Part shown: positions 1 to 64,000 of the stretch, piece by piece
How positions within the stretch are numbered: the first letter of the stretch is position 1
How the letters are laid out: the number at the start of each line of letters is the position of its first letter
Origin: Eledone cirrhosa
Lineage: Eukaryota
Direction of reading: 5' to 3'
DNA: 64,000 bases
Assembly (NCBI GenBank): GCA_964016885.1
Contig: OZ024741.1
Location: 256,866,001 to 256,930,000 of the forward strand
The notes under the pieces: generated by a model
What the model saw: only the letters and a program-made list of their open reading frames with translations
Database searches by the model: none
What the model was told of the DNA's origin: nothing
Position numbers and translations under genes: made by a program

Positions 1-739
1 ACTTACGAGTGTTCTGACTTACGAGTGTTCCGATTTACGAGTGTTTCGGCTTATGAGTGTTTCGACTTACGAATGTTTTTGCTTACGGGTGTTTCGACTT
101 ACGAATGTTTTTGCTTACGAGTGTTTCGGCTTACGAGTGTTTCGACTTACGAGTGTTTCGGCTTACGAGTGTTTTGACTTACGAATGTTCTGACTACGAG
201 TGTTCTGACTTACGAGTGTTTCGGCTTATGAGTGTTTCGGCTTACGAGTGTTTCGACATACGGGTGTTTCGACTTACGGTGTTTCGGCTTACGAGTGTTT
301 CGACTTACGAGTGTTCTGACTTACGAGTGTTCTGACTTACGAGTGTTCTGACTTACGAGTGTTCCGACTTACGAGTGTTTCGGCTTACGAGTGTTTCGGC
401 TTACGAGTGTTTCGGCTTACGAGTGTTTCGACTTACGAGTGTTTCGACTTACGAGTGTTTCGACTTACGAGTGTTTTGACTTACGGTGTTTCGGCTTACG
501 AGTGTTTCGACTTACGAATGTTTTGACTTACTGGTGTTTTGACATACGAGTGTTTCGATACGAGTGTTTCGACTTACGAGTGTTCTGACTTACGAGTGTT
601 CTGACTTACGAGTTTTCTGACTGACGAGTGTTCTAACTTACGAGTGTTCTGACTTACGAGTGTTCTGACTTACGAGTGTTCCGACTTACGAGTGTTTCGG
701 CTCACCAGTGTTTCGGCTTACGAGTGTTTCGACTTACGA

Positions 740-808
740 AAATAACAAATAGACGCGGTTTCAAATCTCTATACTTTTCAAATTCATTACATTAATCTTT
801 ATTTATAC
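740..808 (+). repeat. 69-bp AT-rich linker, first of 32 copies (AAATAACAAATAGACGCGGTTTCAAATCTCTATRCTTTTCAAATTCATTACATTAATCTTTATTTATAC)
   Basis: Copies start at 740, 2063, 3951, 4923, 6173, 7423, 8390, 8738, 10121, 11088, 11436, 12742, 13033, 13842, 15502, 15917, 17033, 17466, 18299, 20955, 21927, 25091, 26350, 27673, 29416, 31336, 32292, 38973, 40967, 47763, 49757 and 60010. Each follows GACTTAYGA and precedes GTTTCGCYTTAC. Confidence 0.97.
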
Positions 809-3800
809 GTTTCGCTTTACGAGTGTTTCGACTTACGAGTGTTTCGACTTACGAGTGTTTCGGCTTACGATTGTTTTGACTTACGAGTGTTTTGACTTAC
901 GGGTGTTTCGGCCTACGAGTGTTTCGACTTACGAGTGTTCTGACTTACGAGTGTTCTGACTTACGAGCGTTCCGACTTACGAGTGTTTCGGCTTACGAGT
1001 GTTCCGACTTACGAGTGTTTCGACTTACGAGTGTTTCGACTTACGAGCGTTTTGACTTACGAGTGTTTTGACTTACGGTGTTTCTGCTTACGAGTGTTTC
1101 GACTTACGAGGGTTAAGACTTACGGGTGTTTTGACATACGAGTGTTTCGACTTACGAGTGTTACCAGTGTTCTGACTTACGAGTGTTTCGACTTACGAGT
1201 GTTCTGACCTACGAGTGTTCTGACTTACGAGTGTTTCGACTTACGAGTGTTTTGACTTACGGGTGTTTCGACTTACGAGTGTTTCGACTTACGAGTGTTT
1301 CGAGTTACGGGTGTTTCGACTTACGAGTGTTTTGACTTACGAGTGTTAAGACTTACGGGTGTTTTGACATACGAGTGTTTCGATACGAGTGTTTCGACTT
1401 ACGAGTGTTTTGACTTACGGGTGTTTTGACATACGAGTGTTTCGAAACGAGTGTTTCGACTACGAGTGTTTCGACTTACGAGTGTTTCGGCTTACGAGTG
1501 TTTCGACATACGGGTGTTTCGATTTACGGTGTTTCGGCTTACGAGTGTTTCGACTTACGAATGTTCTGACTTACGAGTGTTCTGACTTACGAGTGTTCTG
1601 ACTTACGAGTGTTCTGACTTACGATTGTTCCGACTTACGAGTGTTTCGGCTTACGAGTGTTTCGGCTTACGAGTGTTTCGACTTACGAGTGTTTCGATTT
1701 ACGAGTGTTTCGACTTACGAGTGCTTTGACTTACGGTGTTTCGGCTTACGAGTGTTTCGACTTACGAGTGATTTGACTTACTGGTGTTTTGACATACGAG
1801 GGTTTCGATACGAGTGTTTCGACTTACGAGTGTTTTAACTTACGGTTGTTTCGAATTACGCGTGTTTCGACTACGAATGTTCCGACTTACGAGTGTTTCG
1901 ACTTACGAGTGTTTCGACTTACGAGTGCTTTGACTTACGAATGTTTTGACTTACTTCGACTTACGAGTGATCTGACTTACGAGTGTTCCTACTTACGAGT
2001 GTTTCGACTTACGAGTGTTTCGACTTGCGAGTGTTTCGACATACGAGTGTTTCGACTTACGAAAATAACAAATAGACGCGGTTTCAAATCTCTATGCTTT
2101 TCAAATTCATTACATTAATCTTTATTTATACGTTTCGCTTTACGAGTGTTTCGAGTTACGAGTGTTTCGACATACGAGTGATTCGGCTAACGAGTGTTTT
2201 GATTTACGAGTGTTTTGACTTACGGGTGCTTCGACTTACGCGTGTTTCGACTTACGAGTGTTTCGACTTACGAGTGTTTCGACTTACGATTGTTTCGGCT
2301 TACGAATGTTTCGACTTACGAGTGTTCTGACTACGAGTGTTCTGACTTACGGGTGTTCTGACTTACGAGTGTTCCGACTTACGAGTGTTTCGGCTTATGA
2401 GTGTTTCGACTTACAAGTGCTTCGACTTACGAGTGTTTCGGCTTACGGGTGTTTCGACTTACGAATGTTTTTGCTTACGAGTGTTTCGGCTTACGAGTGT
2501 TTCGGCTTATGAGTGTTTCGACTTACAAGTGTTTTGACTTACGGGTGTTTTGACATACGAGTGTTTCGATACGAGTGTTCTGACTTACGAGTGTTTCCGC
2601 TTACGAGTGTTTCGGCTTACGAGTGTTTCGACTTACTAATGTTTTTACTTACGAGTGTTTCGGTGTACGAGTGTTTCGACTTAAGGATGTTTCGACTTAC
2701 GAGTGTTTCGACTTACGAGTGTTTCGACTTACGAGTGTTTCGACTTACGAGTGTTTTGGCTTACGAATGTTTTGACATACGGGTGTTTCGACTTACGGGT
2801 GTTTCGGCTTACGAGTGTTTCGACTTATGAGTGTTCCGACTTACGAGTGTTTCGACTTACGAGTGTTCTGACTACGAGTGTTCTGACTTACGTGTGCTCT
2901 GACTTACGAGTGTTTCGACTTACGAGTGTTCCGACTTACGAGTGTTTCGACTTACGAGTGTTTCGACTTACGAGCGTTTTGACTTACGAGTGTTTTGACT
3001 TACGGTGTTTCTGCTTACGAGTGTTTAGACTTACGAGGGTTAAGACTTACGGGTGTTTTGACATACGAGTGTTTCGACTTACGAGTGTTACGAGTGTTTC
3101 GACTTATGAGTGTTCCGACTTACGAGTGTTTCGACTTACGAGTGTTCTGACTACGAGTGTTCTGACTTACGGGTGCTCTGACTTACGAGTGTTTCGACTT
3201 ACGAGTGTTTCGACTTATGAGTGTTTCGGCTTACGAGTGTTTTGACTTACGAGTGTTCTGACTACGAGTGTTCTGACTTACGAGTGTTTCGGCTTATGAG
3301 TGTTTCGACTTACGAGTGTTTCGGCTTATGAGTGTTTCGACTTACGAGTGTTTCGGCTTACGAGTGTTTCGACTTACGAGTGTTTCGACTTACGAGTGTT
3401 TCAACTTACGAGTGTTTCGACTTACGAGTGTTTCGACTTACGGGTGTTTCGACTTACGAGTGTTTCGACTACGAGTGTTTCGACTTACGAGTGTTTCGGC
3501 TTACGAGTGTTTCGACATACGGGTGTTTCGACTTACGGTGTTTCGGCTTACGAGTGTTTCGACTTACGAGTGTTCTGACTTACGAGTGTTCTGACTTACG
3601 AGTGTTTCGGCTTACGAGTGTTTCGGCTTACGAGTGTTTCGGCTTACGAGTGTTTCGACTTACGAGTGTTTCGACTTACGAGTGTTTCGACTTACGAGTG
3701 TTTCGACTTACGGTGTTTCGGCTTACGAGTGTTTCGACTTACGAGTGTTTTGACTTACTGGTGTTTTGACATACGAGTGTTTCGATACGAGTGTTTCGAC

Positions 3801-4569
3801 TTACGAGTGTTCTGACTTACGAGTGTTCTGACTTACGAGTGTTCTAACTTACGAGTGTTCTGACTTACGAGTGTTCTGACTTACGAGTGTTCCGACTTAC
3901 GAGTGTTTCGGCTCACCAGTGTTTCGGCTTACGAGTGTTTCGACTTACGAAAATAACAAATAGACGCGGTTTCAAATCTCTATGCTTTTCATATTCATTA
4001 CATTAATCTTTATTTATACGTTTCGCCTTACGAGTGTTTCGACTTACGAGTGTTTCGACTTACGAGTGTTTCGGCTTACGAGTGTTTCGACTTACGAGTG
4101 TTTTGACTTACGGGTGTTTTGACATACGAGTGTTTCGATACGAGTGTTCTGACTTACGAGTGTTCTGACTTACGAGTGTTCTGACTTACGAGTGTTCTGA
4201 CTTACGAGTGTTCCGATTTACGAGTGTTTCGGCTTATGAGTGTTTCGACTTACGAATGTTTTTGCTTACGGGTGTTTCGACTTACGAATGTTTTTGCTTA
4301 CGAGTGTTTCGGCTTACGAGTGTTTCGACTTACGAGTGTTTCGGCTTACGAGTGTTTTGACTTACGAATGTTCTGACTACGAGTGTTCTGACTTACGAGT
4401 GTTTCGGCTTATGAGTGTTTCGGCTTACGAGTGTTTCGACATACGGGTGTTTCGACTTACGGTGTTTCGGCTTACGAGTGTTTCGACTTACGAGTGTTCT
4501 GACTTACGAGTGTTCTGACTTACGAGTGTTCTGACTTACGAGTGTTCCGACTTACGAGTGTTTCGGCTT

Positions 4570-7500: not shown

Positions 7501-7640
7501 TACGAGTGTTTCGACTTACGAGTGTTTCGACTTACGAGTGTTTCGGCTTACGATTGTTTTGACTTACGAGTGTTTTGACTTACGGGTGTTTCGGCTTACG
7601 AGTGTTTCGACTTACGAGTGTTCTGACTTACGAGTGTTCT
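4570..7640 (+). repeat. Higher-order tandem repeat, period 1250 bp (about 2.5 copies)
   Basis: Linkers at 4923, 6173 and 7423. Matching ORF pairs 5166/6416 (identical) and 5572/6822 (one residue differs) are offset by 1250. Confidence 0.9.
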
Positions 7641-18355: not shown

Positions 18356-18875
18356 GTTTCGCTTTACGAGTGTTTACGAGTGACTTACGAATGTTTTGAC
18401 TTCGACTTACGAGTGATCTGACTTACGAGTGTTCCTACTTACGAGTGTTTCGACTTACGAGTGTTTCGACTTGCGAGTGTTTCGACTTACGAGTGTTTCG
18501 GCTTACGAGTGTTTCGATGTTTCGGCTTACGTGTGTTTCGACTTACGAGTGTTTCGACTTACGAGTGTTTCGGCTTATGAGTGTTTCGACTTACGAGTGC
18601 TTCGGCTTACGAGTGTTTCGACTTACGAGTGTTTCGGCTTACGAGTGTTTCGACGTACGAATGTTTTGGCTTACGAGTGTTTCGGCTTATGAGTGTTTCG
18701 ACTTACGAGTGTTTCGACTTACGAGTGTTTCGGCTTACGAGTGTTTCGACTTACGAGTGTTTCGGCTTACGAGTGTTTCAGTGTTTCGGCTTACGTGTTT
18801 TGACTTACGAGTGTTTCGACTTACGAGTGTTTCGGCTTACGAGTGTTTCGGCTTACGAGTGTTTCGGCTTATATA

Positions 18876-18954
18876 TAAACGTTTCTATTTCCATCGTTTT
18901 ATCGTAAACGTTTATATATTTCCATCGTTATATCATAACGTTTATATTTCCGTC
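18876..18954 (+). repeat. Three-copy 29-31-bp tandem repeat (TAAACGTTT(A/C)TATTTCCATCGTT(A/T)TATC)
   Basis: Copies at 18876-18904, 18905-18935 and a partial copy at 18936-18954. Confidence 0.85.
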
Positions 18955-19131
18955 ACTAATCTCTTTTTCTCCTTTTCCGTTTTAACATATATTTATTTCA
19001 AAGATTTCACCGTATAGATAACATATATATTTATACATGCATAAAAGACACACCGAGAGACGGTAAAAATGTGGTGCCAAAAACATTTCTCATCCAAATC
19101 TCAACAATATCAGTATATACACTAGATTTGC

Positions 19132-19166
19132 TAGCAGAAAACCGCCCACCGGGTGGTTTTCTGCTA
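19132..19166. other. 16-bp inverted repeat / hairpin TAGCAGAAAACCGCCC-ACC-GGGTGGTTTTCTGCTA (candidate Helitron 3' terminus)
   Basis: Arms 19132-19147 and 19151-19166 pair at 15 of 16 positions plus one G:T wobble, with a 3-nt loop. It is bounded by CTAG at 19131-19134 and CTAT at 19164-19167. Confidence 0.9.
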
Positions 19167-19167
19167 T

Positions 19168-19289
19168 TCTATATATATAAAACTGAGGATGTCTGTCTGT
19201 GTGTGAGTTTGAATCCCTAAAACTCGAGAACCACCCAACCGACTGTTTTCAAACTTTACACATGTAATACTTATGTTTCAGGGAGTGTT
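19168..19289 (+). mobile_element. Helitron-like 5' segment, copy A
   Basis: Starts TC-TATATATATAAAA, followed by CTGAGGAT(GTCT)2(GT)n and GAATCCCTAAAACTCGAGAACCACCCAACCGACTGTTTTCAAACTTTACAC. A TC start with an AT-rich tract, microsatellite and conserved core matches non-autonomous rolling-circle elements as I recall them. Confidence 0.6.
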
Positions 19290-19459
19290 CTGAGCAAAAA
19301 ATATTTCAAATTTTCAATGTCGTAGGGACCACATTAGGCGATTTAGCGATCTCTCTCTATAATTCTTAGTCTTTCTCTTTTTAGATAGATACATACATAT
19401 AACGTCGTGCCCTTATAATATCTGTCTGTATGTCTGGCTGTCTGCATTACGTCACTTCC

Positions 19460-19576
19460 CTGAGGATGTCTGTGTGTGTGTGTGTGTCTGTGAGTTTGAA
19501 TCCCTAAAATGCGAGAAGTACCCAACCGATTTTTTTCAAACTTTACATGTGTATTACTTATGTTTCAGGGAGTGTT
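19460..19576 (+). repeat. Helitron-like segment, copy B (direct repeat of 19183-19289)
   Basis: Aligns with copy A from CTGAGGATGTCTGT to CAGGGAGTGTT. I counted 9 mismatches in the roughly 85 bp after the microsatellite, and the (TG)n tract is 10 bp longer. Confidence 0.92.
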
Positions 19577-20759
19577 TGTTATGCACATAAAATTCAACCT
19601 TTTGATCTGGTGTTTTGACTTACGAGTGTTTCGATACGAGTGTTTCGACTTACGAGTGTTCTGACTTACGAGTGTTCTGACTTACGAGCGTTCTGACTTA
19701 CGAGTGTTCCGACTTACGAGTGTTTCGGCTTACGAGTGTTTCGACTTACGAGTGTTCTGACTTACGAGTGTTTCGACTTACGAGCGTTCCGACTTACGAG
19801 TGTTTCGACTAACGAGTGTTTCGGCTTACGAGTGTTTCGACTTACGAGTGTTCTGACTTACGAGTGTTCCGACTTACGAGCGTTCCGATTTACGAGTGTT
19901 TCGACTTACGAGTGTTAAGACTTACGGGTGTTTTGACATACGAGTGTTTCGATACGAGTGTTTCGACTTACGAGTGTTACGAGTGTTCTCACTTACGAGT
20001 GTTTCGACTTACGAGTGTTCTGACCTACGAGTGTTCTGACTTACGAGTGTTTCGACTTACGAGTGTTTTGACTTACGGGTGTTTCGACTTACGAGTGTTT
20101 CGACTTACGAGTGTTTCGAGTTACGAGTGTTTCGACTTACGAGTGTTTTGACTTACGAATGTTCTGACTTACGGGTGTTTCGGCTTACGAGTGTTTCGAC
20201 TTACGAGTGTTTTAACTTACGGGTGTTTCGACTTACACGTGTTTCGACTTGCGAGTGTTTCGACTTACGAGTGTTTCGACTACGAATGTTCCGACTTACG
20301 AGTGTTTCGACTTACGAGTGTTTCGACTTACGAGTATTCTGACTTACGGGTGTTCCGACTTACGAGTGTTTCGGCTTACGATTGTTTTGACTTACGATTG
20401 TTTCGGCTTATGAGTGTTTCGACTTACGAGTGTTTCGGCTTATGAGTGTTTCGACTTACGAGTGTTTCAGCTTACGAATGTTTCGACTTACGAGTGTTAA
20501 GACTTACGGGTGTTTTGACATACGAGTGTTTCGATTTACGAGTGTTTCGACTTACGAGTGCTTTGACTTACGGTGTTTCGGCTTACGAGTGTTTCGACTT
20601 ACGTGTGTTTCGACTTACTAATGTTTTTACTTACGAGTGTTTCGGTGTACGAGTGTTTCGACTTAAGGATGTTTCGACTAACGAGTGTTTCGGCTTACGA
20701 GTGTTTCGACTTACGAGTGTTCTGACTTACGAGTGTTTCGACTTACGAGTGTTTTGACT

Positions 20760-44500: not shown

Positions 44501-47500
44501 GACTTACGAGTGTTCCGGCTTACGCGTGTTTCGACTTACGAGTGTTTCGGCTTATGAGTGTTTCGACTTACGAGTGCTTCGGCTTACGAGTGTTTCGACT
44601 TACGAGTGTTTCGGCTTACGAGAGTTTCGACTTACGAATGTTTTGGCTTACGAGTGTTTCGGCTTACGAGTGTTTCGACTTACGGGTGTTTCGACTTACG
44701 GGTGTTCCGACTTAAGAGTGATTCGACTTACGGGCGCTTCGACTTACGAGTGTTCCGACTTACGAGTGTTTCTGCTTACGAGTGTTTCGACTTACGAATG
44801 TTTCGACTTACGAGTGTTTCGGCTTACGAGTGTTTCGACTTACTAATGTTTTTACTTACGAGTGTTTCGGCGTACGAGTGTTTCGACTTACGAGTGTTTC
44901 GGCTTACGAGTGTTTCGACTTACGAGTGTTTTTACTTAAGGGTGTTTCGACTTACGAGTATTTTTGGCTTACGAGTGTTTCGACTTACGAGTGTTTTGAC
45001 TTACGAGTGTTCTGATTTACGAATGTTTCGACATACGAGTGTTTTGACTTACGATGTTTCGACTTACGAGTGTTTCGACTTACGAGTGTTCTGACTTACG
45101 AGTGTTCTGACTTACGAGTGTTCCGGCTTACGAGTTTTTCGACTTACGAGTGTTTCGACTTACGAGTGTTTCGACTTACGAGTGTTTCGGCTTACGAGTG
45201 GTTTGACTTACGAGTGTTCTGACTACGAGTGTTCTGACTTACGAGTGTTTCGGCTTATGAGTGTTTCGACTTACGAGTGTTTCGGTTTATGAGTGTTTCG
45301 ACTTACGAGTGTTTCGGCTTACGAGTGTTTCGACTTACGAATGTTTCGACTTACGGGTGTTTCGACTTACGAGTGTTTCGTCTACGAGTGTTTCGACTTA
45401 CGAGTGTTTCGGCTTACGAGTGTTTCGACATACGGGTGTTTCGACTTACGGTGTTTCGGCTTTCGAGTGTTTCGACTTACGAGTGTTTTGACTTACGAGT
45501 GTTCTGACTTACGAGTGTTCCGACTTACGAGTGTTCCGACTTACGAGTGTTTCGGATTACGAGTGTTTCGGCTTACGAGTGTTTCGGCTTACGAGTGTTT
45601 TGACTTACGAGTGTTCTGACTACGAGTGTTCTGACTTACGGGTGTTCTGACTTACGGTGTTCCGACTTACGAGTGTTTCGGCTAATGAGTGTTTCGACTT
45701 ACGGGCGTTTCGACTTACGGGTGTTTCGAATTACGAGTGTTTTGACTTACGAGTGTTCTGACTTACGAGTGTTTTGACTTACGAGTGTTCCGACTTACGA
45801 GTGTTTCGGCTTACGGGTGTTTCGACGTACGAGTATTTTTGGCTTACGAGTGTTTCGAGTTACGAGTGTTTTGAATTACGATTGTTTCGGCTTACGAGTG
45901 TTTCGACTTACGAGTATTTCGACTTACGAGTTTTTTTACTTACGGTGTTTCGGCTTACGAGTGTTTCGACTTACGAGTGTTTCGACTTACGGGTGTTTTG
46001 ACATACGAGTGTTTCGATATGAGTGCTCTGACTTACGAGTGTTCTGACTTATGAGTGTTCTGACTTACGAGTGTTCTGACTTACGGGTGTTCTGACTTAC
46101 GTGTGTTCCGACTTACGTGTTTCAGCTATGGGTGTTTCGACTTACGAGTGTTTCGACTTACGAATGTTTTGGCTTACGAGTGTTTCGGCTTACGAATGTT
46201 TCGACTTACGAATGTTTTGGCTTACGAGTGTTTCGGCTTATGGGTGTTTCGACTTACGAGTGTTTCGACTTGCGAGTGTTTTGACTTACGGTGTTTCGGC
46301 TTACAAGTTATTCGACATACGAGTGTTTCGACTTACGAGTGTTTCGACTTACGGGTGTTTCGACTTACGAGTGTTTCGACTTACGAGTGTTCTGACTTAC
46401 GAGTGTTCTGACTTACGAGTGTTCTGACTTACGAGTGTTCCGACTTACGAGTGTTCCGACTTACGAGTGTTTTGACTTACGAGTGTTCTGACTTACGAGT
46501 GTTCTTACTTACGAGTGTTCCGACTTACGAGTGTTCCGACTTACGAGTGTTTCGGCTTACGAGTGTTTCGGCTTACTAATGTTTTTACTTACGAGTGTTT
46601 CGGTGTACGAGTGTTTCGACTTAAGGATGTTTCGACTTACGAGTGTTTCGACTTACGAGTGTTTCGACTTACGAGTGTTTTGGCTTACGAATGTTTTTAC
46701 TTACGGGTGTTTCGACTTACGGGTGTTTCGGCTTACGAGTGTTTCGACTTACGAGTGTTTTGACTTACGAGTGTTCTGACTTACGAGTGTTCCGACTTAC
46801 GAGTGTTCCGACTTACGAGTGTTTCGGCTTACGAGTGTTTCGGCTTACGAGTGTTTCGGCTTACGAGTGTTTTGACTTACGAGTGTTCTGACTACGAGTG
46901 TTCTGACTTACGGGTGTTCTGACTTACGAGTGTTCCGACTTACGAGTGTTTCGGCTAATGAGTGTTTCGACTTACGGGCGTTTCGACTTACGGGTGTTTC
47001 GACTTACGAGTGTTTTGACTTATGAGTGTTCAGACTTACGAGTGTTCTGACTTACGAGTGTTCCGATTTACGACTGTTTCGACTTACGAGTGTTTTGACT
47101 TACGAGTGTTCCGACTTACGATTGTTTCGGCTTACGGGTGTTTCGACGTACGAGTATTTTTGGCTTACGAGTGTTTCGACTTACGAGTGTTTTGAATTAC
47201 GATTGTTTCGGCTTACGAGTGTTTCGACTTACGAGTATTTCGACGTACGAGTTTTTTTTCCTTACGGTGTTTCGGCTTCCGAGTGTTTCGACTTATGAGT
47301 GTTTCGACTTACGAGTGTTCTGACTTACGAGTGTTCTGACTTGCGAGTGTTCCGACTTACGAGTGTTTCGGCTTACGAGTGTTTCGACATACGAGTGTTT
47401 TGACTTACGGATGTTTCGACTTACGGGTGTTTCGACTTACGAGTGTTTCGACTTACGAGTGTTCTGACTACGAGTGTTCTGACTTACGGGTGTTTCGACT

Positions 47501-50500
47501 TACGAGTGTTCCGACCTACGAGGGTTTCAGCTTACGGGTGTTCCGGCTTATGAGTATTTTCGGCTTACGTGTGTTTCGACTTACGAGTGTTTTGACTTAC
47601 GATTGTTTCGGCTTACGAGTGTTTCGACTTACGAGTGTTTCGACTTATGAGTGTTTTGACTTACGATTGTTTCGGCTTACGAGTGTTTCGACTTACGAGT
47701 GTTCTGACTTACGAGTGTTCTGACTTACGAGTGTTCTGACTTACGAGTGTTTCGACTTACGAAAATAACAAATAGACGCGGTTTCAAATCTGTATGCTTT
47801 TCAAGTTCATTACATTAATCTTTATTTATACGTTTCGCTTTACGAATGTTTCGACTTACGAGTGTTTCGACTTACGAGTGTTTCGACTTACGGGTGTTTC
47901 GACTTACGAGTGTTTCGACATACGAGTGTTCTGACTACGAGTGTTCTGACTTACGGGTGCTCTGACTTACGAGTGTTTCGACTTACGAGTGTTTCGACTT
48001 ACGAGTGTTTCGACTTACGAGTGTTTCTGCTTACGAGTGTTTCGACTTACTAATGTTTTTACTTACGAGTGTTTCGGTGTACGAGTGTTTCGACTTAAGG
48101 ATGTTTCGACTTACGAGTGTTTCGACTTACGAGTGTTTTGGCTTACGTGAGTTTCGACTTAAGAGTGTTCTGATTTACGAGTGTTCTGACCTGCGGGTGT
48201 TCTGATTTACGAGTGTTCCGACTTACGAGTGTTTCGGCTTATGAGTGTTTCGACTTACGAGTGTTTCGGCTTACGAGTGTTTCGACTTATGGGCGTTTCG
48301 ACTTACGAGTGTTTTTACTTACGGTGTTTCGGCTTACGAGTGCTTCGACATACGAGTGTTTTGACTTACGTGTGTTTCGACTTACGAGTGTTTTGACTTA
48401 CGAATGTTTTGACTTACGAGTGTTTCGGCGTACGAGAGTTTTGACTTACGAGTGTTTCTACTTACGAGTGTTTCGACTTACGAGTGTTTTGACTTACGAA
48501 TGTTTTGACTTACGGGTGTTTCGGCTTACGAGTGTTTCGACTTACGAGTCTTTCGGCTTACGAGTGTTTCGACTTACTAATGTTTTTACTTACGAGTGTT
48601 TCGGCGTACGAGTGTTTCGACTTACGAGTGTTTCGGCTTACGAGTGTTTCGACTTACTAATGTTTTTACTTACGAGTGTTTCGGCGTACGAGTGTTTCGA
48701 CTTACGAGTGTTTTTACTTAAGGGTGTTTCGACTTACGTGTATTTTTGGCTTACGAGTGTTTCGACTTACGAGTGTTTTGACTTACGAGTGTTCTGATTT
48801 ACGGATGTTTCGACATACGAGTGTTTTGACTTACGATGTTTCGACTTACGAGTGTTTCGACTTACGAGTGTTTCGACTTACGGGTGTTTCGACTTACGAG
48901 TGTTTCAACTTACGAGTGTTTCGACTTACGAATGTTTCGACTTACGGGTGTTTCGGCTTACGAGTGTTTCGACTTACGAGTGTTCTGACTTACGAGTGTT
49001 CTGACTTACGAGTGTTCCGGCTTACGAGTTTTTCGACTTACGAGTGTTTCGACTTACGAGTGTTTCGACTTACGAGTGTTTCGGCTTACGAGTGGTTTGA
49101 CTTACGAGTGTTCTGACTACGAGTGTTCTGACTTACGAATGTTTCGGCTTATGAGTGTTTCGACTTACGAGTGTTTCGGTTTATGAGTGTTGCGACTTAC
49201 GAGTGTTTCGGCTTACGAGTGTTTGGACTTACGAGTGTTTCGACTTACGGGTGTTTCGACTTACGAGTGTTTCGTCTACGAGTGTTTCGGCTTACGAGTG
49301 TTCGACATACGGGTGTTTCGACTTACGGTGTTTCGGCTTACGAGTGTTTCGACTTACGAGTGTTCTGACTTACGAGTGTTCTGACTTATGAGTGTTCTGA
49401 CTTACGAGTGTTCCGACTTACGAGTGTTTCGGCTTACGAGTGTTTCGACTTACGAGTGTTTCGACTTACGAGTGTTTCGACTTATGAGTGTTTTGACTTA
49501 CGGTGTTTCGGCTTACGAGTGTTTCGACTTACGAGTGTTTTGACTTACTGGTGTTTTGACATACGAGTGTTTCGATACGAGTGTTTCGACTTACGAGTGT
49601 TCTGACTTACGAGTGTTCTGACTTACGAGTGTTCTGACTTACGAGTGTTCTAACTTACGAGTGTTCTGACTTACGAGTGTTCTGACTTACGAGTGTTCCG
49701 ACTTACGAGTGTTTCGGCTCACGAGTGTTTCGGCTTACGAGTGTTTCGACTTACGAAAATAACAAATAGACGCGGTTTCAAATCTCTATGCTTTTCAAAT
49801 TCAGTACATTAATCTTTATTCATACGTTTCGCTTTACGAGTGTTTCGACTTACGAGTGTTTCGACTTACGAGTGTTTCGGCTTACGAGTGTTTTGACTTA
49901 CGAGTGTTTTGACTTACATGTGTTTCGACTTACGCGTGTTTCGACTTACGAGTATTTCGACTTGCGAGTGTTTCGACTACGGGTGTTTCGACTTACGAAT
50001 GTTTTGACTTACGGATGTTTTGACTTACGGGTGTTTCGGCTTACGAGTGTTTCGACTTACGAGTGTTCTGACTTACGAGTGTTCTGACTTACGAGTGTTC
50101 TGACTTACGAGTGTTCCGACTTACGAGTGTTTCGACTTAAGAGTGTTTCGGATTACGAGTGCTTCGACTTACGAGTGTTTCGGCTTACGAGTGTTTCGAC
50201 TTACTAATGTTTTTACTTACGAGTGTTTCGGCGTACGAGTGTTTCGACTTACGAGTGTTTCGACTTACGGGTGTTTTGACTTACGGGTGTTTCGGCTTAC
50301 GAGTGTTTCGACTTACGAGTGTTTTGACTTAAGGGTGTTTCGACTTACGAGTATTTTTGGCTTACGAGTGTTTCGACTTACGAGTGTTTTGACTTACGAG
50401 TGTTCTAATTTACGGATGTTTCGACATACGAGTGTTTTGACTTACGAGTGTTTCGACTTATGAGTGTTTCGATTTACGAGTGTTTCGGCTTACGAGTGGT

Positions 50501-53500
50501 TTGACTTACGAGTGTTCTGACTACGAGTGTTTTGACTTACGAGTGTTTCGGCTTATGAGTGTTTCGACTTACGAGTGTTTCGGTTTACGAGTGTTTCGAC
50601 TTACGAGTGTTTCGACTTACGAGTGTTTCGACTTACGAGTGATTCGACCACGAGTGTTTCGACTTACGAGTGTTTCGGCTTACGAGTGTTTCGACATACG
50701 GGTGTTTCGACTTACGATGTTTCGGCTTACGAGTGTTTCGACTTACGAGTGTTCTGACTTACGGGTGTTTCGACTTACTGGTGTTTCGACTTAAGAGTGT
50801 TTCGACTTACGAGCGCTTCGACTTACGAGTGTTCTGACTTACGAGTGTTCCGACTTACGAGTGTTTCGGCTTACGAGTGTTTCGGCTTACTAATGTTTTT
50901 ACTTACGAGTGTTTCGGTGTACGAGTGTTTCGACTTAAGGATGTTTCGACTTACGAGTGTTTCGACTTACGAGTGTTTCGACTTACGAGTGTTTCGACTT
51001 ACGAGTTTTTTGGCTTACGAAGGTTTTGACTTACGGGTGTTTCGACTTACGGGTGTTTCGGCTTACGAGTGTTTCGACTTACGAGTGTTTTGACTTACGA
51101 GTGTTCTGACTTACGAGTGTTCCGACTTACGAGTGTTCCGACTTACGAGTGTTTCGGCTTAAGAGTGTTTCGGCTTACGAGTGTTTCGACATACGGGTGT
51201 TTCGACTTACGGTGTTTCGGCTTACGAGTGTTTCAACTTACGAGTGTTTCGACTACGAATGTTTCGACTTACGAGTGTTTTGACTTACGAGTGTTCTGAC
51301 TACGAGTGTTCTGACTTACGGGTGTTCTGACTTACGAGTGTTCCGACTTACGAGTGTTTCGGCTAATGAGTGTTTCGACTTACGGGCGTTTCGACTTACG
51401 GGTGTTTCGACTTACGAGTGTTTTGACTTACGAGTGTTCTGACTTACGAGTGTTCTGACTTACGAGAGTTCCGACTTACGACTGTTTCGACTTACGAGTG
51501 TTTTGACTTACGAGTGTTCCGACTTACGAGTGTTTCGGCTTATGGGTGTTTTGACGTACGAGTATTTTTGGCTTACGAGTGTTTCTACTTACGAGTGTTT
51601 TGAATTACGATTGTTTCGGCTTACGAGTGTTTCGACTTACGAGTATTTCGACTTACGAGTTTTTTTACTTACGGTGTTTCGGCTTACGAGTGTTTCGACT
51701 TATGAGTGTTCTGATTTACGGATGTTTCGACATACGAGTGTTTTGACTTACGGTGTTTCGACTTACGAGTGTTTCGACTTACGAGTGTTTCGACTTACGG
51801 GTGTTTCGACTTACGAGTGTTTCGACTTACGAGTGTTACGACTTACGGGTGTTTCGGCTTACGAGTGTTTCGACTTACGAGTCTTCTGACTTACGAGTGT
51901 TCTGACTTACGAGTGTTCCGGCTTACGAGTTTTTCGACTTACGAGTGTTTCGACTTACGAGTGTTTCGGCTTACAAGTGTTTCGGCTTACGAGTGGTTTG
52001 ACTTACGAGTGTTCTGACTACGAGTGTTCTGTCTTACGAGTGTTTCGACTTACGAGTGTTTCGGCTTATGAGTGTTTCGACTCACGAGTGTTTCGGCTTA
52101 CGAGTGTTTCGACTTACGAGTGTTTCGACTTACGGGTGTTTCGACTTACGAGTGTTTCGACTACGAATGTTTCGACTTACGAGTGTTTCGGCTTACGAGT
52201 GTTTCGACTTATGGGTGTTTCGACTTACGAGTGTTTTTACTTACGGTGTTTCGGCTTACGAGTGTTTCGACATACGAGTGTTTTGACTTACGGGTGTTTC
52301 GACTTACGAGTGTTTCGACTTACGAATGTTTTGACTTACGGGTGTTTCGGCTTACGATTGTTTCGATTTATGAGTGTTTCGGCTTACGAGTGTTTCGACT
52401 TACTAATGTTTTTACTTACGAGTGTTTCGGCGTACGAGAGTTTTGACTTACGAGTGTTTCTACTTACGAGTGTTTCGACTTACGAGTGTTTTGACTTACG
52501 AATGTTTTGACTTACGGGTGTTTCGGCTTACGAGTGTTTCGACTTACGAGTCTTTCGGCTTACGAGTGTTTCGACTTACTAATGTTTTTACTTACGAGTG
52601 TTTCGGCGTACGAGTGTTTCGACTTACGAGTGTTTCGACTTACGGGTGTTTTGACTTACGGGTGTTTCGGCTTACGAGTGTTTCGACTTACGAGTGTTTT
52701 GACTTAAGGGTGTTTCGACTTACGAGTATTTTTGGCTTACGAGTGTTTCGACTTACGAGAGTTTTGACCTACGAGTGTTCTAATTTACGGATGTTTCGAC
52801 ATACGAGTGTTTTGACTTACGAGTGTTTCGACTTATGAGTGTTTCGACTTACGAGTGTTTCGGCTTACGAGTGGTTTGACTTACGAGTGTTCTGACTACG
52901 AGTGTTTTGACTTACGAGTGTTTCGGCTTATGAGTGTTTCGACTTACGAGTGTTTCGGCTTATGAGTGTTTCGACTTACGTGTGTTTCGGTTTACGAGTG
53001 TTTCGACTTACGAGTGTTTCGACTTACGGGTGTTTCGACTTACGAGTGTTTCGACTACGAGTGTTTCGACTTACGAGTGTTTCGGCTTACGAGTGTTTCG
53101 ACATACGGGTGTTTCGACTTACGATGTTTCGGCTTACGAGTGTTTCGACTTACGAGTCTTCTGACTTACGGGTGTTTCGACTTATGGGTGTTTCGACTTA
53201 AGAGTGTTTCGACTTGCGAGCGCTTCGACTTACGAGTGTTCTGACTTACGAGTGTTCCGACTTACGAGTGTTTCGGCTTACGAGTGTTTCGACTTACGAG
53301 TGTTCCGGCTTACGCGTGTTTCGACTTACGAGTGTTTCGGCTTATGAGTGTTTCGACTTACGAGTGCTTCGGCTTACGAGTGTTTCGACTTACGAGTGTT
53401 TCGGCTTACGAGAGTTTCGACTTACGAATGTTTTGGCTTACGAGTGTTTCGGCTTACGAGTGTTTCGACTTACGGGTGTTTCGACTTACGGGTGTTCCGA

Positions 53501-56370
53501 CTTAAGAGTGATTCGACTTACGGGCGCTTCGACTTACGAGTGTTCCGACTTACGAGTGTTTCTGCTTACGAGTGTTTCGACTTACGAATGTTTCGACTTA
53601 CGAGTGTTTCGGCTTACGAGTGTTTCGACTTACTAATGTTTTTACTTACGAGTGTTTCGGCGTACGAGTGTTTCGACTTACGAGTGTTTCGGCTTACGAG
53701 TGTTTCGACTTACGAGTGTTTTTACTTAAGGGTGTTTCGACTTACGAGTATTTTTGGCTTACGAGTGTTTCGACTTACGAGTGTTTTGACTTACGAGTGT
53801 TCTGATTTACGAATGTTTCGACATACGAGTGTTTTGACTTACGATGTTTCGACTTACGAGTGTTTCGACTTACGAGTGTTCTGACTTACGAGTGTTCTGA
53901 CTTACGAGTGTTCCGGCTTACGAGTTTTTCGACTTACGAGTGTTTCGACTTACGAGTGTTTCGACTTACGAGTGTTTCGGCTTACGAGTGGTTTGACTTA
54001 CGAGTGTTCTGACTACGAGTGTTCTGACTTACGAGTGTTTCGGCTTATGAGTGTTTCGACTTACGAGTGTTTCGGTTTATGAGTGTTTCGACTTACGAGT
54101 GTTTCGGCTTACGAGTGTTTCGACTTACGAATGTTTCGACTTACGAGTGTTTCGACTTACGAGTGTTTCGTCTACGAGTGTTTCGACTTACGAGTGTTTC
54201 GGCTTACGAGTGTTTCGACATACGGGTGTTTCGACTTACGGTGTTTCGGCTTTCGAGTGTTTCGACTTACGAGTGTTTTGACTTACGAGTGTTCTGACTT
54301 ACGAGTGTTCCGACTTACGAGTGTTCCGACTTACGAGTGTTTCGGATTACGAGTGTTTCGGCTTACGAGTGTTTCGGCTTACGAGTGTTTTGACTTACGA
54401 GTGTTCTGACTACGAGTGTTCTGACTTACGGGTGTTCTGACTTACGGTGTTCCGACTTACGAGTGTTTCGGCTAATGAGTGTTTCGACTTACGGGCGTTT
54501 CGACTTACGGGTGTTTCGAATTACGAGTGTTTTGACTTACGAGTGTTCTGACTTACGAGTGTTTTGACTTACGAGTGTTCCGACTTACGAGTGTTTCGGC
54601 TTACGGGTGTTTCGACGTACGAGTATTTTTGGCTTACGAGTGTTTCGAGTTACGAGTGTTTTGAATTACGATTGTTTCGGCTTACGAGTGTTTCGACTTA
54701 CGAGTATTTCGACTTACGAGTTTTTTTACTTACGGTGTTTCGGCTTACGAGTGTTTCGACTTACGAGTGTTTCGACTTACGGGTGTTTTGACATACGAGT
54801 GTTTCGATATGAGTGCTCTGACTTACGAGTGTTCTGACTTATGAGTGTTCTGACTTACGAGTGTTCTGACTTACGGGTGTTCTGACTTACGTGTGTTCCG
54901 ACTTACGTGTTTCAGCTATGGGTGTTTCGACTTACGAGTGTTTCGACTTACGAATGTTTTGGCTTACGAGTGTTTCGGCTTACGAATGTTTCGACTTACG
55001 AATGTTTTGGCTTACGAGTGTTTCGGCTTATGGGTGTTTCGACTTACGAGTGTTTCGACTTGCGAGTGTTTTGACTTACGGTGTTTCGGCTTACAAGTTA
55101 TTCGACATACGAGTGTTTCGACTTACGAGTGTTTCGACTTACGGGTGTTTCGACTTACGAGTGTTTCGACTTACGAGTGTTCTGACTTACGAGTGTTCTG
55201 ACTTACGAGTGTTCTGACTTACGAGTGTTCCGACTTACGAGTGTTCCGACTTACGAGTGTTTTGACTTACGAGTGTTCTGACTTACGAGTGTTCTTACTT
55301 ACGAGTGTTCCGACTTACGAGTGTTCCGACTTACGAGTGTTTCGGCTTACGAGTGTTTCGGCTTACTAATGTTTTTACTTACGAGTGTTTCGGTGTACGA
55401 GTGTTTCGACTTAAGGATGTTTCGACTTACGAGTGTTTCGACTTACGAGTGTTTCGACTTACGAGTGTTTTGGCTTACGAATGTTTTTACTTACGGGTGT
55501 TTCGACTTACGGGTGTTTCGGCTTACGAGTGTTTCGACTTACGAGTGTTTTGACTTACGAGTGTTCTGACTTACGAGTGTTCCGACTTACGAGTGTTCCG
55601 ACTTACGAGTGTTTCGGCTTACGAGTGTTTCGGCTTACGAGTGTTTCGGCTTACGAGTGTTTTGACTTACGAGTGTTCTGACTACGAGTGTTCTGACTTA
55701 CGGGTGTTCTGACTTACGAGTGTTCCGACTTACGAGTGTTTCGGCTAATGAGTGTTTCGACTTACGGGCGTTTCGACTTACGGGTGTTTCGACTTACGAG
55801 TGTTTTGACTTATGAGTGTTCAGACTTACGAGTGTTCTGACTTACGAGTGTTCCGACTTACGACTGTTTCGACTTACGAGTGTTTTGACTTATGAGTGTT
55901 CCGACTTACGATTGTTTCGGCTTACGGGTGTTTCGACGTACGAGTATTTTTGGCTTACGAGTGTTTCGACTTACGAGTGTTTTGAATTACGATTGTTTCG
56001 GCTTACGAGTGTTTCGACTTACGAGTATTTCGACGTACGAGTTTTTTTTCCTTACGCTGTTTCGGCTTACGAGTGTTTCGACTTATGAGTGTTTCGACTT
56101 ACGAGTGTTCTGACTTACGAGTGTTCTGACTTGCGAGTGTTCCGACTTACGAGTGTTTCGGCTTACGAGTGTTTCGACATACGAGTGTTTTGACTTACGG
56201 ATGTTTCGACTTACGGGTGTTTCGACTTACGAGTGTTTCGACTTACGAGTGTTCTGACTACGAGTGTTCTGACTTACGGGTGTTTCGACTTACGAGTGTT
56301 CCGACCTACGAGGGTTTCAGCTTACGGGTGTTCCGGCTTATGAGTATTTTCGGCTTACGTGTGTTTCGAC
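38020..56370 (+). repeat. Large tandem duplication, period 8790 bp (about 2.1 copies)
   Basis: Constant offset 8790 across dozens of ORF pairs (38236/47026/55816, 39423/48213, 40998/49788, 43187/51977, 46643/55433) and linkers 38973/47763 and 40967/49757. Confidence 0.96.
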
Positions 56371-59300: not shown

Positions 59301-62300
59301 ACGAGTGTTCTGACTTACGAGTGTTCCGACTTACGACTGTTTCGACTTACGAGTGTTTTGACTTACGATTGTTTCGGCTTACGGGTGTTTCGACGTACGA
59401 GTATTTTTGGCTTACGAGTGTTTCGACTTACGAGTGTTTTGAATTACGATTGTTTCGGCTTACGAGTGTTTCGACTTACGAGTATTTCGACGTACGAGTT
59501 TTTTTTCCTTACGCTGTTTCGGCTTACGAGTGTTTCGACTTATGAGTGTTTCGACTTACGAGTGTTCTGACTTACGAGTGTTCTGACTTGCGAGTGTTCC
59601 GACTTACGAGTGTTTCGGCTTACGAGTGTTTCGACATACGAGTGTTTTGACTTACGGATGTTTCGACTTACGGGTGTTTCGACTTACGAGTGTTTCGACT
59701 TACGAGTGTTCTGACTACGAGTGTTCTGACTTACGGGTGTTTCGACTTACGAGTGTTCCGACCTACGAGGGTTTCAGCTTACGGGTGTTCCGGCTTATGA
59801 GTATTTTCGGCTTACGTGTGTTTCGACTTACGAGTGTTTTGACTTACGATTGTTTCGGCTTACGAGTGTTTCGACTTACGAGTGTTTCTACTTACGAGTG
59901 TTTTGACTTACGATTGTTTCGGCTTACGAGTGTTTCGACTTACGAGTGTTCTGACTTACGAGTGTTCTGACTTACGAGTGTTCTGACTTACGAGTGTTTC
60001 GACTTACGAAAATAACAAATAGACGCGGTTTCAAATCTGTATGCTTTTCAAGTTCATTACATTAATCTTTATTTATACGTTTCGCTTTACGAATGTTTCG
60101 ACTTACGAGTGTTTCGACTTACGAGTGTTTCGACTTACGGGTGTTTCGACTTACGAGTGTTTCGACATACGAGTGTTCTGACTACGAGTGTTCTGACTTA
60201 CGGGTGCTCTGACTTACGAGTGTTTCGACTTACGAGTGTTTCGACTTACGAGTGTTTCGACTTACGAGTGTTTCGGCTTACGAGTGTTTCGACTTACTAA
60301 TGTTTTTACTTAAGAGTGTTTCGGTGTACGAGTGTTTCGACTTAAGGATGTTTCGACTTACGAGTGTTTCGACTTACGAGTGTTTCGACTTACGGGTGTT
60401 TTGACATACGAGTGTTTCGATATGAGTGCTCTGACTTACGAGTGTTCTGACTTATGAGTGTTCTGACTTACGAGTGTTCTGACTTACGGGTGTTCTGACT
60501 TACGTGTGTTCCGACTTACGTGTTTCAGCTATGGGTGTTTCGACTTACGAGTGTTTCGACTTACGAATGTTTTGGCTTACGAGTGTTTCGGCTTACGAAT
60601 GTTTCGACTTACGAATGTTTTGGCTTACGAGTGTTTCGGCTTATGGGTGTTTCGACTTACGAGTGTTTCGACTTGCGAGTGTTTTGACTTACGGTGTTTC
60701 GGCTTACAAGTTATTCGACATACGAGTGTTTCGACTTACGAGTGTTTCGACTTACGGGTGTTTCGACTTACGAGTGTTTCGACTTACGAGTGTTCTGACT
60801 TACGAGTGTTCTGACTTACGAGTGTTCTGACTTACGAGTGTTCCGACTTACGAGTGTTCCGACTTACGAGTGTTTTGACTTACGAGTGTTCTGACTTACG
60901 AGTGTTCTTACTTACGAGTGTTCCGACTTACGAGTGTTCCGACTTACGAGTGTTTCGGCTTACGAGTGTTTCGGCTTACTAATGTTTTTACTTACGAGTG
61001 TTTCGGTGTACGAGTGTTTCGACTTAAGGATGTTTCGACTTACGAGTGTTTCGACTTACGAGTGTTTCGACTTACGAGTGTTTTGGCTTACGAATGTTTT
61101 TACTTACGGGTGTTTCGACTTACGGGTGTTTCGGCTTACGAGTGTTTCGACTTACGAGTGTTTTGACTTACGAGTGTTCTGACTTACGAGTGTTCCGACT
61201 TACGAGTGTTCCGACTTACGAGTGTTTCGGCTTACGAGTGTTTCGGCTTACGAGTGTTTCGGCTTACGAGTGTTTTGACTTACGAGTGTTCTGACTACGA
61301 GTGTTCTGACTTACGGGTGTTCTGACTTACGAGTGTTCCGACTTACGAGTGTTTCGGCTAATGAGTGTTTCGACTTACGGGCGTTTCGACTTACGGGTGT
61401 TTCGACTTACGAGTGTTTTGACTTATGAGTGTTCAGACTTACGAGTGTTCTGACTTACGAGTGTTCCGACTTACGACTGTTTCGACTTACGAGTGTTTTG
61501 ACTTATGAGTGTTCCGACTTACGATTGTTTCGGCTTACGGGTGTTTCGACGTACGAGTATTTTTGGCTTACGAGTGTTTCGACTTACGAGTGTTTTGAAT
61601 TACGATTGTTTCGGCTTACGAGTGTTTCGACTTACGAGTATTTCGACGTACGAGTTTTTTTTCCTTACGCTGTTTCGGCTTACGAGTGTTTCGACTTATG
61701 AGTGTTTCGACTTACGAGTGTTCCGACTTACGAGTGTTCTGACTTGCGAGTGTTCCGACTTACGAGTGTTTCGGCTTACGAGTGTTTCGACATACGAGTG
61801 TTTTGACTTACGGATGTTTCGACTTACGGGTGTTTCGACTTACGAGTGTTTCGACTTACGAGTGTTCTGACTACGAGTGTTCTGACTTACGGGTGTTTCG
61901 ACTTACGAGTGTTCCGACCTACGAGGGTTTCAGCTTACGGGTGTTCCGGCTTATGAGTATTTTCGGCTTACGTGTGTTTCGACTTATGAGTGTTTCGACT
62001 TACGAGTGTTTCGGCTTACGAGTGGTTTGACTTACGAGTGTTCTGACTACGAGTGTTTTGACTTACGAGTGTTTCGGCTTATGAGTGTTTCGACTTACGA
62101 GTGTTTCGGCTTATGAGTGTTTCGACTTACGTGTGTTTCGGTTTACGAGTGTTTCGACTTACGAGTGTTTCGACTTACGGGTGTTTCGACTTACGAGTGT
62201 TTCGACTACGAGTGTTTCGACTTACGAGTGTTTCGGCTTACGAGTGTTTCGACATACGGGTGTTTCGACTTACGATGTTTCGGCTTACGAGTGTTTCGAC

Positions 62301-64000
62301 TTACGAGTATTCTGACTTACGGGTGTTTCGACTTATGGGTGTTTCGACTTAAGAGTGTTTCGACTTGCGAGCGCTTCGACTTACGAGTGTTCTGACTTAC
62401 GAGTGTTCCGACTTACGAGTGTTTCGGCTTACGAGTGTTTCGACTTACGAGTGTTCCGGCTTACGCGTGTTTCGACTTACGAGTGTTTCGGCTTACGAGT
62501 GTTTCGGCTTACGAGTGTTTCGACTTACGGGTGTTTCGACTTACGGGTGTTCCGACTTAAGAGTGATTCGACTTACGGGCGCTTCGACTTACGAGTGTTC
62601 CGACTTACGAGTGTTTCTGCTTACGAGTGTTTCGACTTACGAATGTTTCGACTTACGAGTGTTTCGGCTTACGAGTGTTTCGACTTACTAATGTTTTTAC
62701 TTACGAGTGTTTCGGCGTACGAGTGTTTCGACTTACGAGTGTTTCGGCTTACGAGTGTTTCGACTTACGAGTGTTTTTACTTAAGGGTGTTTCGACTTAC
62801 GAGTATTTTTGGCTTACGAGTGTTTCGACTTACGAGTGTTTTGACTTACGAGTGTTCTGATTTACGAATGTTTCGACATACGAGTGTTTTGACTTACGAT
62901 GTTTCGACTTACGAGTGTTTCGACTTACGAGTGTTCTGACTTACGAGTGTTCTGACTTACGAGTGTTCCGGCTTACGAGTTTTTCGACTTACGAGTGTTT
63001 CGACTTACGAGTGTTTCGACTTACGAGTGTTTCGGCTTACGAGTGGTTTGACTTACGAGTGTTCTGACTACGAGTGTTCTGACTTACGAGTGTTTCGGCT
63101 TATGAGTGTTTCGACTTACGAGTGTTTCGGTTTATGAGTGTTTCGACTTACGAGTGTTTCGGCTTACGAGTGTTTCGACTTACGAATGTTTCGACTTACG
63201 AGTGTTTCGACTTACGAGTGTTTCGTCTACGAGTGTTTCGACTTACGAGTGTTTCGGCTTACGAGTGTTTCGACATACGGGTGTTTCGACTTACGGTGTT
63301 TCGGCTTTCGAGTGTTTCGACTTACGAGTGTTTTGACTTACGAGTGTTCTGACTTACGAGTGTTCCGACTTACGAGTGTTCCGACTTACGAGTGTTTCGG
63401 ATTACGAGTGTTTCGGCTTACGAGTGTTTCGGCTTACGAGTGTTTTGACTTACGAGTGTTCTGACTACGAGTGTTCTGACTTACGGGTGTTCTGACTTAC
63501 GGTGTTCCGACTTACGAGTGTTTCGGCTAATGAGTGTTTCGACTTACGGGCGTTTCGACTTACGGGTGTTTCGAATTACGAGTGTTTTGACTTACGAGTG
63601 TTCTGACTTACGAGTGTTTTGACTTACGAGTGTTCCGACTTACGAGTGTTTCGGCTTACGGGTGTTTCGACGTACGAGTATTTTTGGCTTACGAGTGTTT
63701 CGAGTTACGAGTGTTTTGAATTACGATTGTTTCGGCTTACGAGTGTTTCGACTTACGAGTATTTCGACTTACGAGTTTTTTTACTTACGGTGTTTCGGCT
63801 TACGAGTGTTTCGACTTACGAGTGTTTCGACTTACGGGTGTTTTGACATACGAGTGTTTCGATATGAGTGCTCTGACTTACGAGTGTTCTGACTTATGAG
63901 TGTTCTGACTTACGAGTGTTCTGACTTACGGGTGTTCTGACTTACGTGTGTTCCGACTTACGTGTTTCAGCTATGGGTGTTTCGACTTACGAGTGTTTCG
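53430..64000 (+). repeat. Derived partial duplications of the 8790-bp unit (offsets 3442 and 5613 bp)
   Basis: Offset 3442: 53572/57014, 54051/57493, 54891/58333. Offset 5613: 54891/60504, 55816/61429, 56472/62085, 57493/63106, 58049/63662. Confidence 0.9.

What the first reader, a model, noticed from the sequence alone, without database searches (positions are those of the whole stretch)
1..64000. Monomer resembles an amplified pogo/Tigger transposase-binding site with CENP-B-box-like geometry: candidate transposon-derived centromeric satellite
Seen: the consensus monomer carries TTCGACTTACGAG, and a frequent variant is TTCGACTTACGGG. Established: the CENP-B box core is TTCG-NNNN-A-NN-CGGG, and CENP-B was domesticated from a pogo/Tigger transposase. 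The variant aligns as TTCG-ACTT-A-(2-nt gap)-CGGG, so all nine core bases are present with 2 nt less spacing. From memory (unverified), TCGACTTACGA also occurs in the termini of Tigger-family elements such as MER47/Tigger5. Inference: the array is a runaway expansion of a DNA-transposon subterminal binding site, giving thousands of phased sites for an active or domesticated CENP-B-like HTH protein. No actual transposon terminus is visible in the window.
Basis: partly seen in the sequence, partly recalled or inferred. Interest (0 to 1): 0.75.

Follow-up and report, generated by a model that had tools for sequence, protein, structure and literature searches.

The report
Mega-satellite of Tigger-like transposon end repeats
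This 16-base satellite DNA grew out of a short repeat inside a rolling-circle jumping gene (a Helitron) and fills several million bases, almost all on one chromosome; its unit was likely taken from the protein-binding ends of a second jumping gene (Tigger), but it is not a true CENP-B box and any centromere role is untested.

Summary
The window is a 16-bp satellite (3,815 parsed monomers, 32 linkers). Its direct source is not a Tigger end. All 20 dispersed linker loci read lie in a non-autonomous Helitron carrying 3-7 units. The large array begins with the Helitron 5' module, the window holds the Helitron 3' half, and intermediates exist (14 units, ~4 kb, 95 kb). A TA-flanked Tigger family, found by transposase profile, has three 16-bp-phased left-end repeats matching the monomer 13, 11 and 12 of 16; 0 of 936 shuffles matched as well across 70 loci. 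Homology stops at the repeats, so capture is inferred. The CENP-B box is not met: 0 strict sites, and about 7% of shuffles resemble it equally. The satellite is not pan-centromeric: 99 of 99 pentamer hits are on chromosome C2, which holds roughly 6-7 Mb of it in a mosaic of satellites. Two intact single-copy Tigger-type genes are untested candidate binders. The scan had not noted this satellite before, but had noted other transposon-born satellites in this genome.

The parts
1..64000 (+). 16-bp satellite array (commonest monomer GTGTTTCGACTTACGA; 253 variants); part of a C2 satellite domain running from about 254.74 to 263.1 Mb
   Evidence: extent
740..809 (+). First of 32 copies of the ~70-bp AT-rich linker, a piece of the Helitron 5' module that precedes the repeat units in dispersed elements
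   Evidence: all 32 starts listed; for the dispersed context
18869..19167 (+). 3' half of the same Helitron, directly after monomers: AT-rich body, hairpin, and an end reading CTAT instead of CTAG
   Evidence: 7 mismatches and one 16-bp gap against dispersed copy L062
19132..19166 (+). Helitron 3' hairpin
   Evidence: -16 kcal/mol, z = -6.9, 0 of 200 shuffles fold as well
19168..19605 (+). 5' part of a second Helitron-like element (TC start) abutting the 3' end, as at most dispersed copies; the array resumes after it
   Evidence: family assignment inferred from its TC start and position
38001..55790 (+). Near-identical 8,790-bp tandem duplication (young higher-order block)
   Evidence: nine 1-kb bins at 99.4-100% identity; its private linker variant occurs 21 times, all within C2:256.90-257.19 Mb

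Best explanation
The array is the expanded internal repeat of a non-autonomous Helitron, and its 16-bp unit was likely acquired from the left-end repeats of a Tigger (pogo-type) transposon, which are predicted to be transposase-binding sites. Shown: dispersed Helitrons carry 3-7 units, intermediates of growing length exist, array edges keep Helitron ends, and nearly all copies lie in one domain on C2. Inferred: a Helitron took up a Tigger end (by capture, or by insertion then deletion), the units were homogenised, and one copy grew by slippage and unequal exchange, re-copying the 5' linker as it went. It most likely behaves now as ordinary chromosome-specific, probably pericentromeric, heterochromatin that needs no binding protein. 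Odds: Helitron origin about 0.93; Tigger ancestry of the unit about 0.7.
For: Helitron: 20 of 20 dispersed linker loci on C1 have a 5' TC start, a 3' CTAG followed by T and a hairpin; 9 of 9 outer 5' ends follow an A; they hold 3 units (5 loci), 4 (14) or 7 (1). Intermediates: intact element with about 14 units (L166); ~4-kb array with 7 linkers ending in body and hairpin (L165); 95-kb C1 array. The C2 domain starts with the Helitron 5' module. Tigger: among 70 loci picked by the HTH_Tnp_Tc5 profile, the three best matches to the tandem monomer are left ends of one TA/TIR family (scores 48, 42, 38; the other 67 score 20-36). The majority of 17 left ends has three phased units matching 13, 11 and 12 of 16; the tandem matches 37 of 48 against a maximum of 34 in 3,000 CpG-preserving shuffles. 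Across all 70 loci it scores 35 of 48, reached by 0 of 936 shuffles. The family's ORF has HTH_Tnp_Tc5 and DDE_1 and matches the CENP-B DNA-binding domain 1hlv at E 3e-6. Location: 99 of 99 pentamer hits are on C2.
Against: No Helitron-Tigger homology beyond the repeat units. No Tigger end with the exact monomer in tandem was found, so the donor is not identified. The whole-set null is only moderately strong: 4 of 936 shuffles reached 34 against the observed 35. The Helitron has degenerate ~15-bp TTT...CG repeats beside the units, so an origin in place remains possible. The 20 dispersed loci were chosen by an exact linker match, which favours Helitrons and young copies. Transposase binding to the Tigger repeats is inferred from their position, not measured.
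Confidence: 0.66

Rival explanations
1. Helitron-born satellite whose unit evolved in place from the element's own degenerate repeats; the Tigger likeness is convergence or chance.
For: No shared flanks with any Tigger locus. Degenerate TTT...CG repeats flank the units. No exact donor was found.
Against: Same sequence and same 16-bp phase as three Tigger end units; 0 of 3,000 and 0 of 936 shuffles reach the observed match. The family was found without selecting on the motif.
Confidence: 0.22
2. The array is an active CENP-B-like system: a host protein domesticated from a Tigger transposase binds the phased monomers at the C2 centromere. This is compatible with the origin in the best explanation but adds function.
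For: Two intact Tigger-type ORFs (C12, 586 aa; C3, 546-aa frame) have no close paralogue in the genome searches and no TIR-like ends detected. Their two presumed recognition helices are close to those of the matching family. Differences between the C12 gene and related pieces in other organisms favour third codon positions (23:13:4 in the 40 of 138 rows shown). The array lies in a multi-satellite domain with a young homogenised block. The satellite is present in contigs of 4 of 4 runs with other organism labels. Pogo transposases were repeatedly domesticated (PMC4231638, abstract).
Against: The satellite is essentially on one chromosome. There are no binding, expression or CENP-A data. The candidate proteins are only 44-48% identical to the matching family's DNA-binding domain. 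The C12 gene's flank belongs to another Tigger family with a different end motif. No clear orthologue of the C12 gene was seen in four runs (partial contigs, inconclusive).
Confidence: 0.09
3. One reading: direct expansion of a Tigger subterminal site with true CENP-B-box geometry into a general centromeric satellite.
For: Motif and phase match to Tigger ends.
Against: Helitron context in 20 of 20 dispersed loci and at array edges. 0 strict boxes and chance-level likeness. One chromosome only.
Confidence: 0.03

Closest known systems
Helitron central-tandem-repeat satellites: Drosophila DINE-TR1 (Dias et al. 2015, seen only as cited in PMC6947457 and PMC9659126) and oyster Cg_HINE / Cg170 (PMC7492417, abstract and introduction; PMC8268682, passages)
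   Same: Non-autonomous rolling-circle element with a 5' module, a microsatellite, then a short tandem array; element-bound and stand-alone arrays coexist; one-sided Helitron ends at arrays.
   Different: Canonical TC...CTAG ends rather than Helentron type; 16-bp unit; multi-megabase array on one chromosome instead of short scattered arrays; the unit matches the end repeats of a different transposon superfamily.
CENP-B box / pogo-Tigger TIR hypothesis (Smit and Riggs 1996; Kipling and Warburton 1997; seen only as cited in PMC5857280 and PMC6947457)
   Same: A satellite motif resembling Tigger ends; the family's transposase is homologous to the CENP-B DNA-binding domain.
   Different: Here the whole monomer is the Tigger-like repeat and a matching family is still in the genome. 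The nine-base box is not met, there is no known binding protein, and the array is not on all chromosomes.
Satellites from DNA-transposon ends: Xstir/Xmix, Tetris TIR-220, miDNA4, ENSAT1 (Table 1 of PMC9659126, read)
   Same: Tandem array derived from a terminal or internal repeat of a class II element.
   Different: Those grow from their own element; here two elements appear to act in relay. That table lists no pogo/Tigger case.
CENP-B-box-like motifs in invertebrate satellites (Meloidogyne, PMC3694981, passages)
   Same: Partial likeness to the box.
   Different: Here the likeness was tested against shuffles and is not significant; the match to a resident Tigger end is.

Membership tests
CENP-B box | Nine essential bases at fixed spacing, nTTCGnnnnAnnCGGGn (PMC11804003, passage) | tested here: not met
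   0 strict sites on both strands; best 8 of 9 at 32 positions; consensus 7 of 9, reached by 7.6% of shuffles
CENP-B box | Bound by CENP-B or a CENP-B-related protein | not testable with these tools
   Needs EMSA or ChIP; candidate ORFs only
Non-autonomous Helitron (source element) | 5' TC and 3' CTRR (PMC3789558, passage) | tested here: met
   20 of 20 for both ends in dispersed copies; the window's own 3' end reads CTAT
Non-autonomous Helitron (source element) | Palindrome near the 3' end | tested here: met
   20 of 20 loci; fold z = -6.9
Non-autonomous Helitron (source element) | Insertion between A and T, without TIRs or target duplication | tested here: inconclusive
   T follows CTAG in 20 of 20 (mostly the TC of the next element); A precedes 9 of 9 outer 5' ends but only 6 of 20 inner ones; no TIR-like start near the units in 20 of 20. 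Empty sites were not compared.
Satellite derived from Helitron central repeats | Same unit in dispersed elements and in long arrays, with element ends at array edges | tested here: met
Tigger/pogo element or MITE as direct source | Monomer cluster bounded by TIRs and TA duplications | tested here: not met
   0 hits for monomer beside a right-hand TIR; none of the 12 TIR-pattern hits carries the monomer in tandem; 0 of 20 dispersed loci
Tigger/pogo subterminal direct repeat (works like) | Sequence and phase match to repeats at the end of a TA/TIR element encoding HTH+DDE | tested here: met
Tigger/pogo subterminal direct repeat (works like) | Homology extending beyond the repeats, proving descent | tested here: not met
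   only the repeat units and simple AT runs align
Centromeric satellite | Megabase array with higher-order blocks | tested here: met
   33 of 44 sampled points in C2:254.74-263.1 Mb are this satellite; 8,790-bp duplication
Centromeric satellite | One large array on each or most chromosomes | tested here: not met
   99 of 99 pentamer hits on C2. The 95-kb C1 array gave no pentamer hit, so arrays of that size elsewhere could be missed, as could unassembled arrays.
Centromeric satellite | CENP-A occupancy or location at the primary constriction | not testable with these tools
   No chromatin or cytogenetic data available

The most novel reading that the evidence does not exclude
An independent CENP-B-like system in a probable octopus: Tigger transposase-binding repeats, relayed through a Helitron, were amplified to several hundred thousand phased sites at the centromere of one chromosome and are bound by a host protein domesticated from a Tigger transposase (C12 or C3 gene). 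This would be the Kipling-Warburton route caught with donor family, carrier and intermediates all still in the genome.
Probability: 0.09. Interest if true: 0.85.

Novelty: new variant of a known kind. Interest (0 to 1): 0.47.

Why it matters
The idea that a centromeric protein-binding motif arose by amplifying pogo/Tigger ends is old, but the mammalian donor element is not in hand (my knowledge). Here a multi-megabase satellite consists of Tigger-end-like repeats, with a matching Tigger family, the Helitron carrier and the size intermediates all present. That makes the idea testable with one gel shift and one ChIP. Even without a function it appears to show a two-transposon relay to a satellite. 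If no protein binds, it is a tidy but ordinary Helitron-born satellite.

Tried and rejected
CENP-B-box geometry: rejected as chance-level. Monomer beside a right-hand TIR: 0 hits. Monomer core followed by A, C or G outside arrays: none among the first 100 of 1,924 places listed, covering C1 and C2 up to 255.4 Mb, apart from one hit next to a linker. Two Tigger-type MITE families found by motif patterns (L023 and L074 types) also resemble the monomer but were selected on the motif, so they were not used as statistical evidence. A motif scan with at most one mismatch in the first 30 transposase loci found nothing; the match appeared only after 40 more loci were fetched (70 of 150 listed). A search for the neighbouring 39-bp satellite used too rare a variant (1 hit), so its distribution is unknown. 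No RNA holder was listed for the Helitron, which says nothing about expression. Laying the C12 gene on four runs gave only partial pieces at mostly 85-95% likeness in two runs and none in two: inconclusive. The HTH exons at C4:234.7 Mb are only 28-38% identical to the matching family's domain for the 4 of 5 fetched that gave a hit: poorer candidates. No structure or complex prediction was run. Literature searches listed no paper on this satellite or on a pogo/Tigger-end-derived satellite; the library lacks most subscription journals, Dfam and Repbase were not available, and no supplements were read. A 325-genome centromere atlas preprint has no occurrence of octopus, cephalopod or mollusc in its main text; its supplements were not seen.
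Full report
1. What is in the window. The 64 kb are one tandem array of period 16. Parsing gave 3,815 monomers in 253 variants; the commonest makes up 23%. A ~70-bp AT-rich linker occurs 32 times, and one 731-bp stretch at 18875-19605 is not satellite. An 8,790-bp block is duplicated at 99.4-100% identity. The window is G000:C2:256,866,001-256,930,000 in a 3.0-Gb genome. The host is probably an octopus; that label comes from earlier scan notes and my recall of a SINE, and was not tested.

2. CENP-B box. The box is nTTCGnnnnAnnCGGGn with nine essential bases (PMC11804003, passages). It occurs 0 times on either strand. The consensus matches 7 of 9 at strict spacing and 8 of 9 with 2 nt of freedom; 7.6% and 6.8% of CpG-preserving shuffles do as well. 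A preprint reports that CENP-B binds canonical rather than degenerate motifs (10.64898/2026.05.25.727640, passages). The box claim fails.

3. The direct source is a Helitron. An exact 24-mer of the linker has 1,912 hits, some as single dispersed copies. I read the first 20 dispersed ones on C1. All 20 have a 5' TC module, a short microsatellite, the linker, 3-7 units (the last one partial), an AT-rich body, a hairpin and CTAG followed by T. These are the defining Helitron ends (PMC3789558, passages). Copies are a median 0.9% from their majority, but the exact-match choice favours young copies. The window's non-satellite stretch is the 3' half of this element, and the C2 domain begins with its 5' module. 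Intermediates are an intact element with about 14 units, a ~4-kb array with 7 linkers ending in body and hairpin, and a 95-kb array on C1 whose edges abut other satellites and show no Helitron ends. Helitron central repeats seeding satellites is known (PMC7492417, abstract and introduction; PMC8268682, passages; DINE-TR1 as cited in PMC6947457).

4. The unit matches Tigger ends. The HTH_Tnp_Tc5 profile gave 150 scored loci; I examined 70 (the 30 best and 40 chosen by hand, partly for long frames). The three best alignments to the tandem monomer are left ends of one family with TA flanks, TIRs and 2.5-2.8 kb length. Its ORF has HTH_Tnp_Tc5 and DDE_1 and matches the CENP-B DNA-binding domain. 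Of 30 left-end loci fetched, I dropped 13 (11 clustered C25 copies, one near-duplicate, the query). The majority of the other 17 has three direct repeats in exact 16-bp phase, matching the monomer at 13, 11 and 12 of 16; the first contains GACTTACGAGTG. At 14 of 16 positions at least two of the three units carry the monomer's base. The tandem scores 37 of 48 against a maximum of 34 in 3,000 CpG-preserving shuffles. Against all 70 loci it scores 35 of 48, reached by 0 of 936 shuffles, although 4 reached 34. These ends are a median 6.7% diverged, older than the Helitron copies read. Against descent: no homology outside the units and no element with the exact monomer behind a TIR. Other Tigger families here have related phased end motifs, so the donor may be a relative not sampled or lost. 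I put Tigger ancestry at about 0.7.

5. Distribution. Of 44 unevenly spaced points sampled in C2:254.74-263.1 Mb, 33 are this satellite (7 inverted, near 259-260 Mb); the rest are 37-, 39-, 45- and 7-bp satellites or other sequence. That suggests roughly 6-7 Mb. The genome holds 2,221 canonical trimers, about what C2 alone predicts at 0.1-0.45 per kb. All 99 canonical pentamers are on C2, 91 in this domain. The satellite is therefore chromosome-specific in this assembly. Both the C1 and C2 arrays lie at about 62-63% of chromosome length among other satellites, sharing an 11/33-bp one. This fits pericentromeric mosaics but does not show a centromere. Contigs from 4 of 4 runs with other organism labels (3 studies) carry the satellite, two of them with the array-type joint, so it is probably older than the host species.

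6. Candidate binders. No full-length frame was seen among the 30 best copies of the matching family within the DNA fetched (longest 478 aa). Two other Tigger-type ORFs are intact, on C12 (586 aa) and C3 (546-aa frame), with no close paralogue found and no TIR-like ends detected. Their presumed recognition helices resemble the family's, at 48% and 44% domain identity. The closest named homologues of the C12 protein are TIGD1-like. A third-position bias in 40 of 138 listed differences hints at selection but could also reflect divergence between active transposon lineages. Domestication, expression and binding are untested. Repeated domestication of pogo transposases is known (PMC4231638, abstract).

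7. Verdict. Shown: a Helitron-born satellite, a statistically supported match to Tigger end repeats, a failed CENP-B box, and confinement to essentially one chromosome. Inferred: uptake of a Tigger end by the Helitron, expansion by slippage and unequal exchange, and a passive heterochromatic role. The pogo-TIR origin of CENP-B boxes is a published idea (as cited in PMC5857280 and PMC6947457, passages). I found no reported satellite built from such repeats in nine library searches or in Table 1 of PMC9659126. New variant of a known kind; interest 0.47.

Noticed in passing
L239:1011-2771 (G000:C12:44.608 Mb): Intact 586-aa Tigger-type ORF, nearest genomic paralogue 76% at DNA level, no TIR detected; its upstream flank matches an old MITE family. 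Candidate domesticated TIGD-like gene.
   Followed up: partly
L353 (G000:C3:41.987 Mb): Second intact Tigger-type frame (546 aa) without detected TIRs.
   Followed up: partly
G000:C25:19.2-23.9 Mb (L287-L302): Dozens of near-identical broken copies of the matching Tigger subfamily clustered on one chromosome, probably inside a large segmental or gene-family amplification.
   Followed up: no
G000:C2:254.3-266 Mb and C1:279.2-279.8 Mb (L113, L114, L163, L164, L179, L181, L185, L190, L198-L200, L341): Mosaic of further satellites (11/33, 39, 45, 7, 37, 57, 18, 25, 20 and 196 bp). The 11/33-bp one occurs at both the C1 and C2 domains and could be a more general centromere-region repeat.
   Followed up: partly
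L054-L073, L167-L169: Helitron-like elements occur in chains: the base after CTAG is usually the TC start of another element, and many have nested 5' ends.
   Followed up: partly
L021-L053, L074-L082, L203-L232, L086-L094: Several Tigger-type families and MITEs in this genome share a related end motif repeated at 15-17-bp phase.
   Followed up: partly
window 1-64000: CpG observed/expected is 2.1 and common monomer variants include CpG-type transitions; methylation state unknown.
   Followed up: no
L129 (G000:C2:257.5 Mb): A stretch that looks like a LINE reverse-transcriptase region lies inside the satellite domain (judged by eye, not tested).
   Followed up: no
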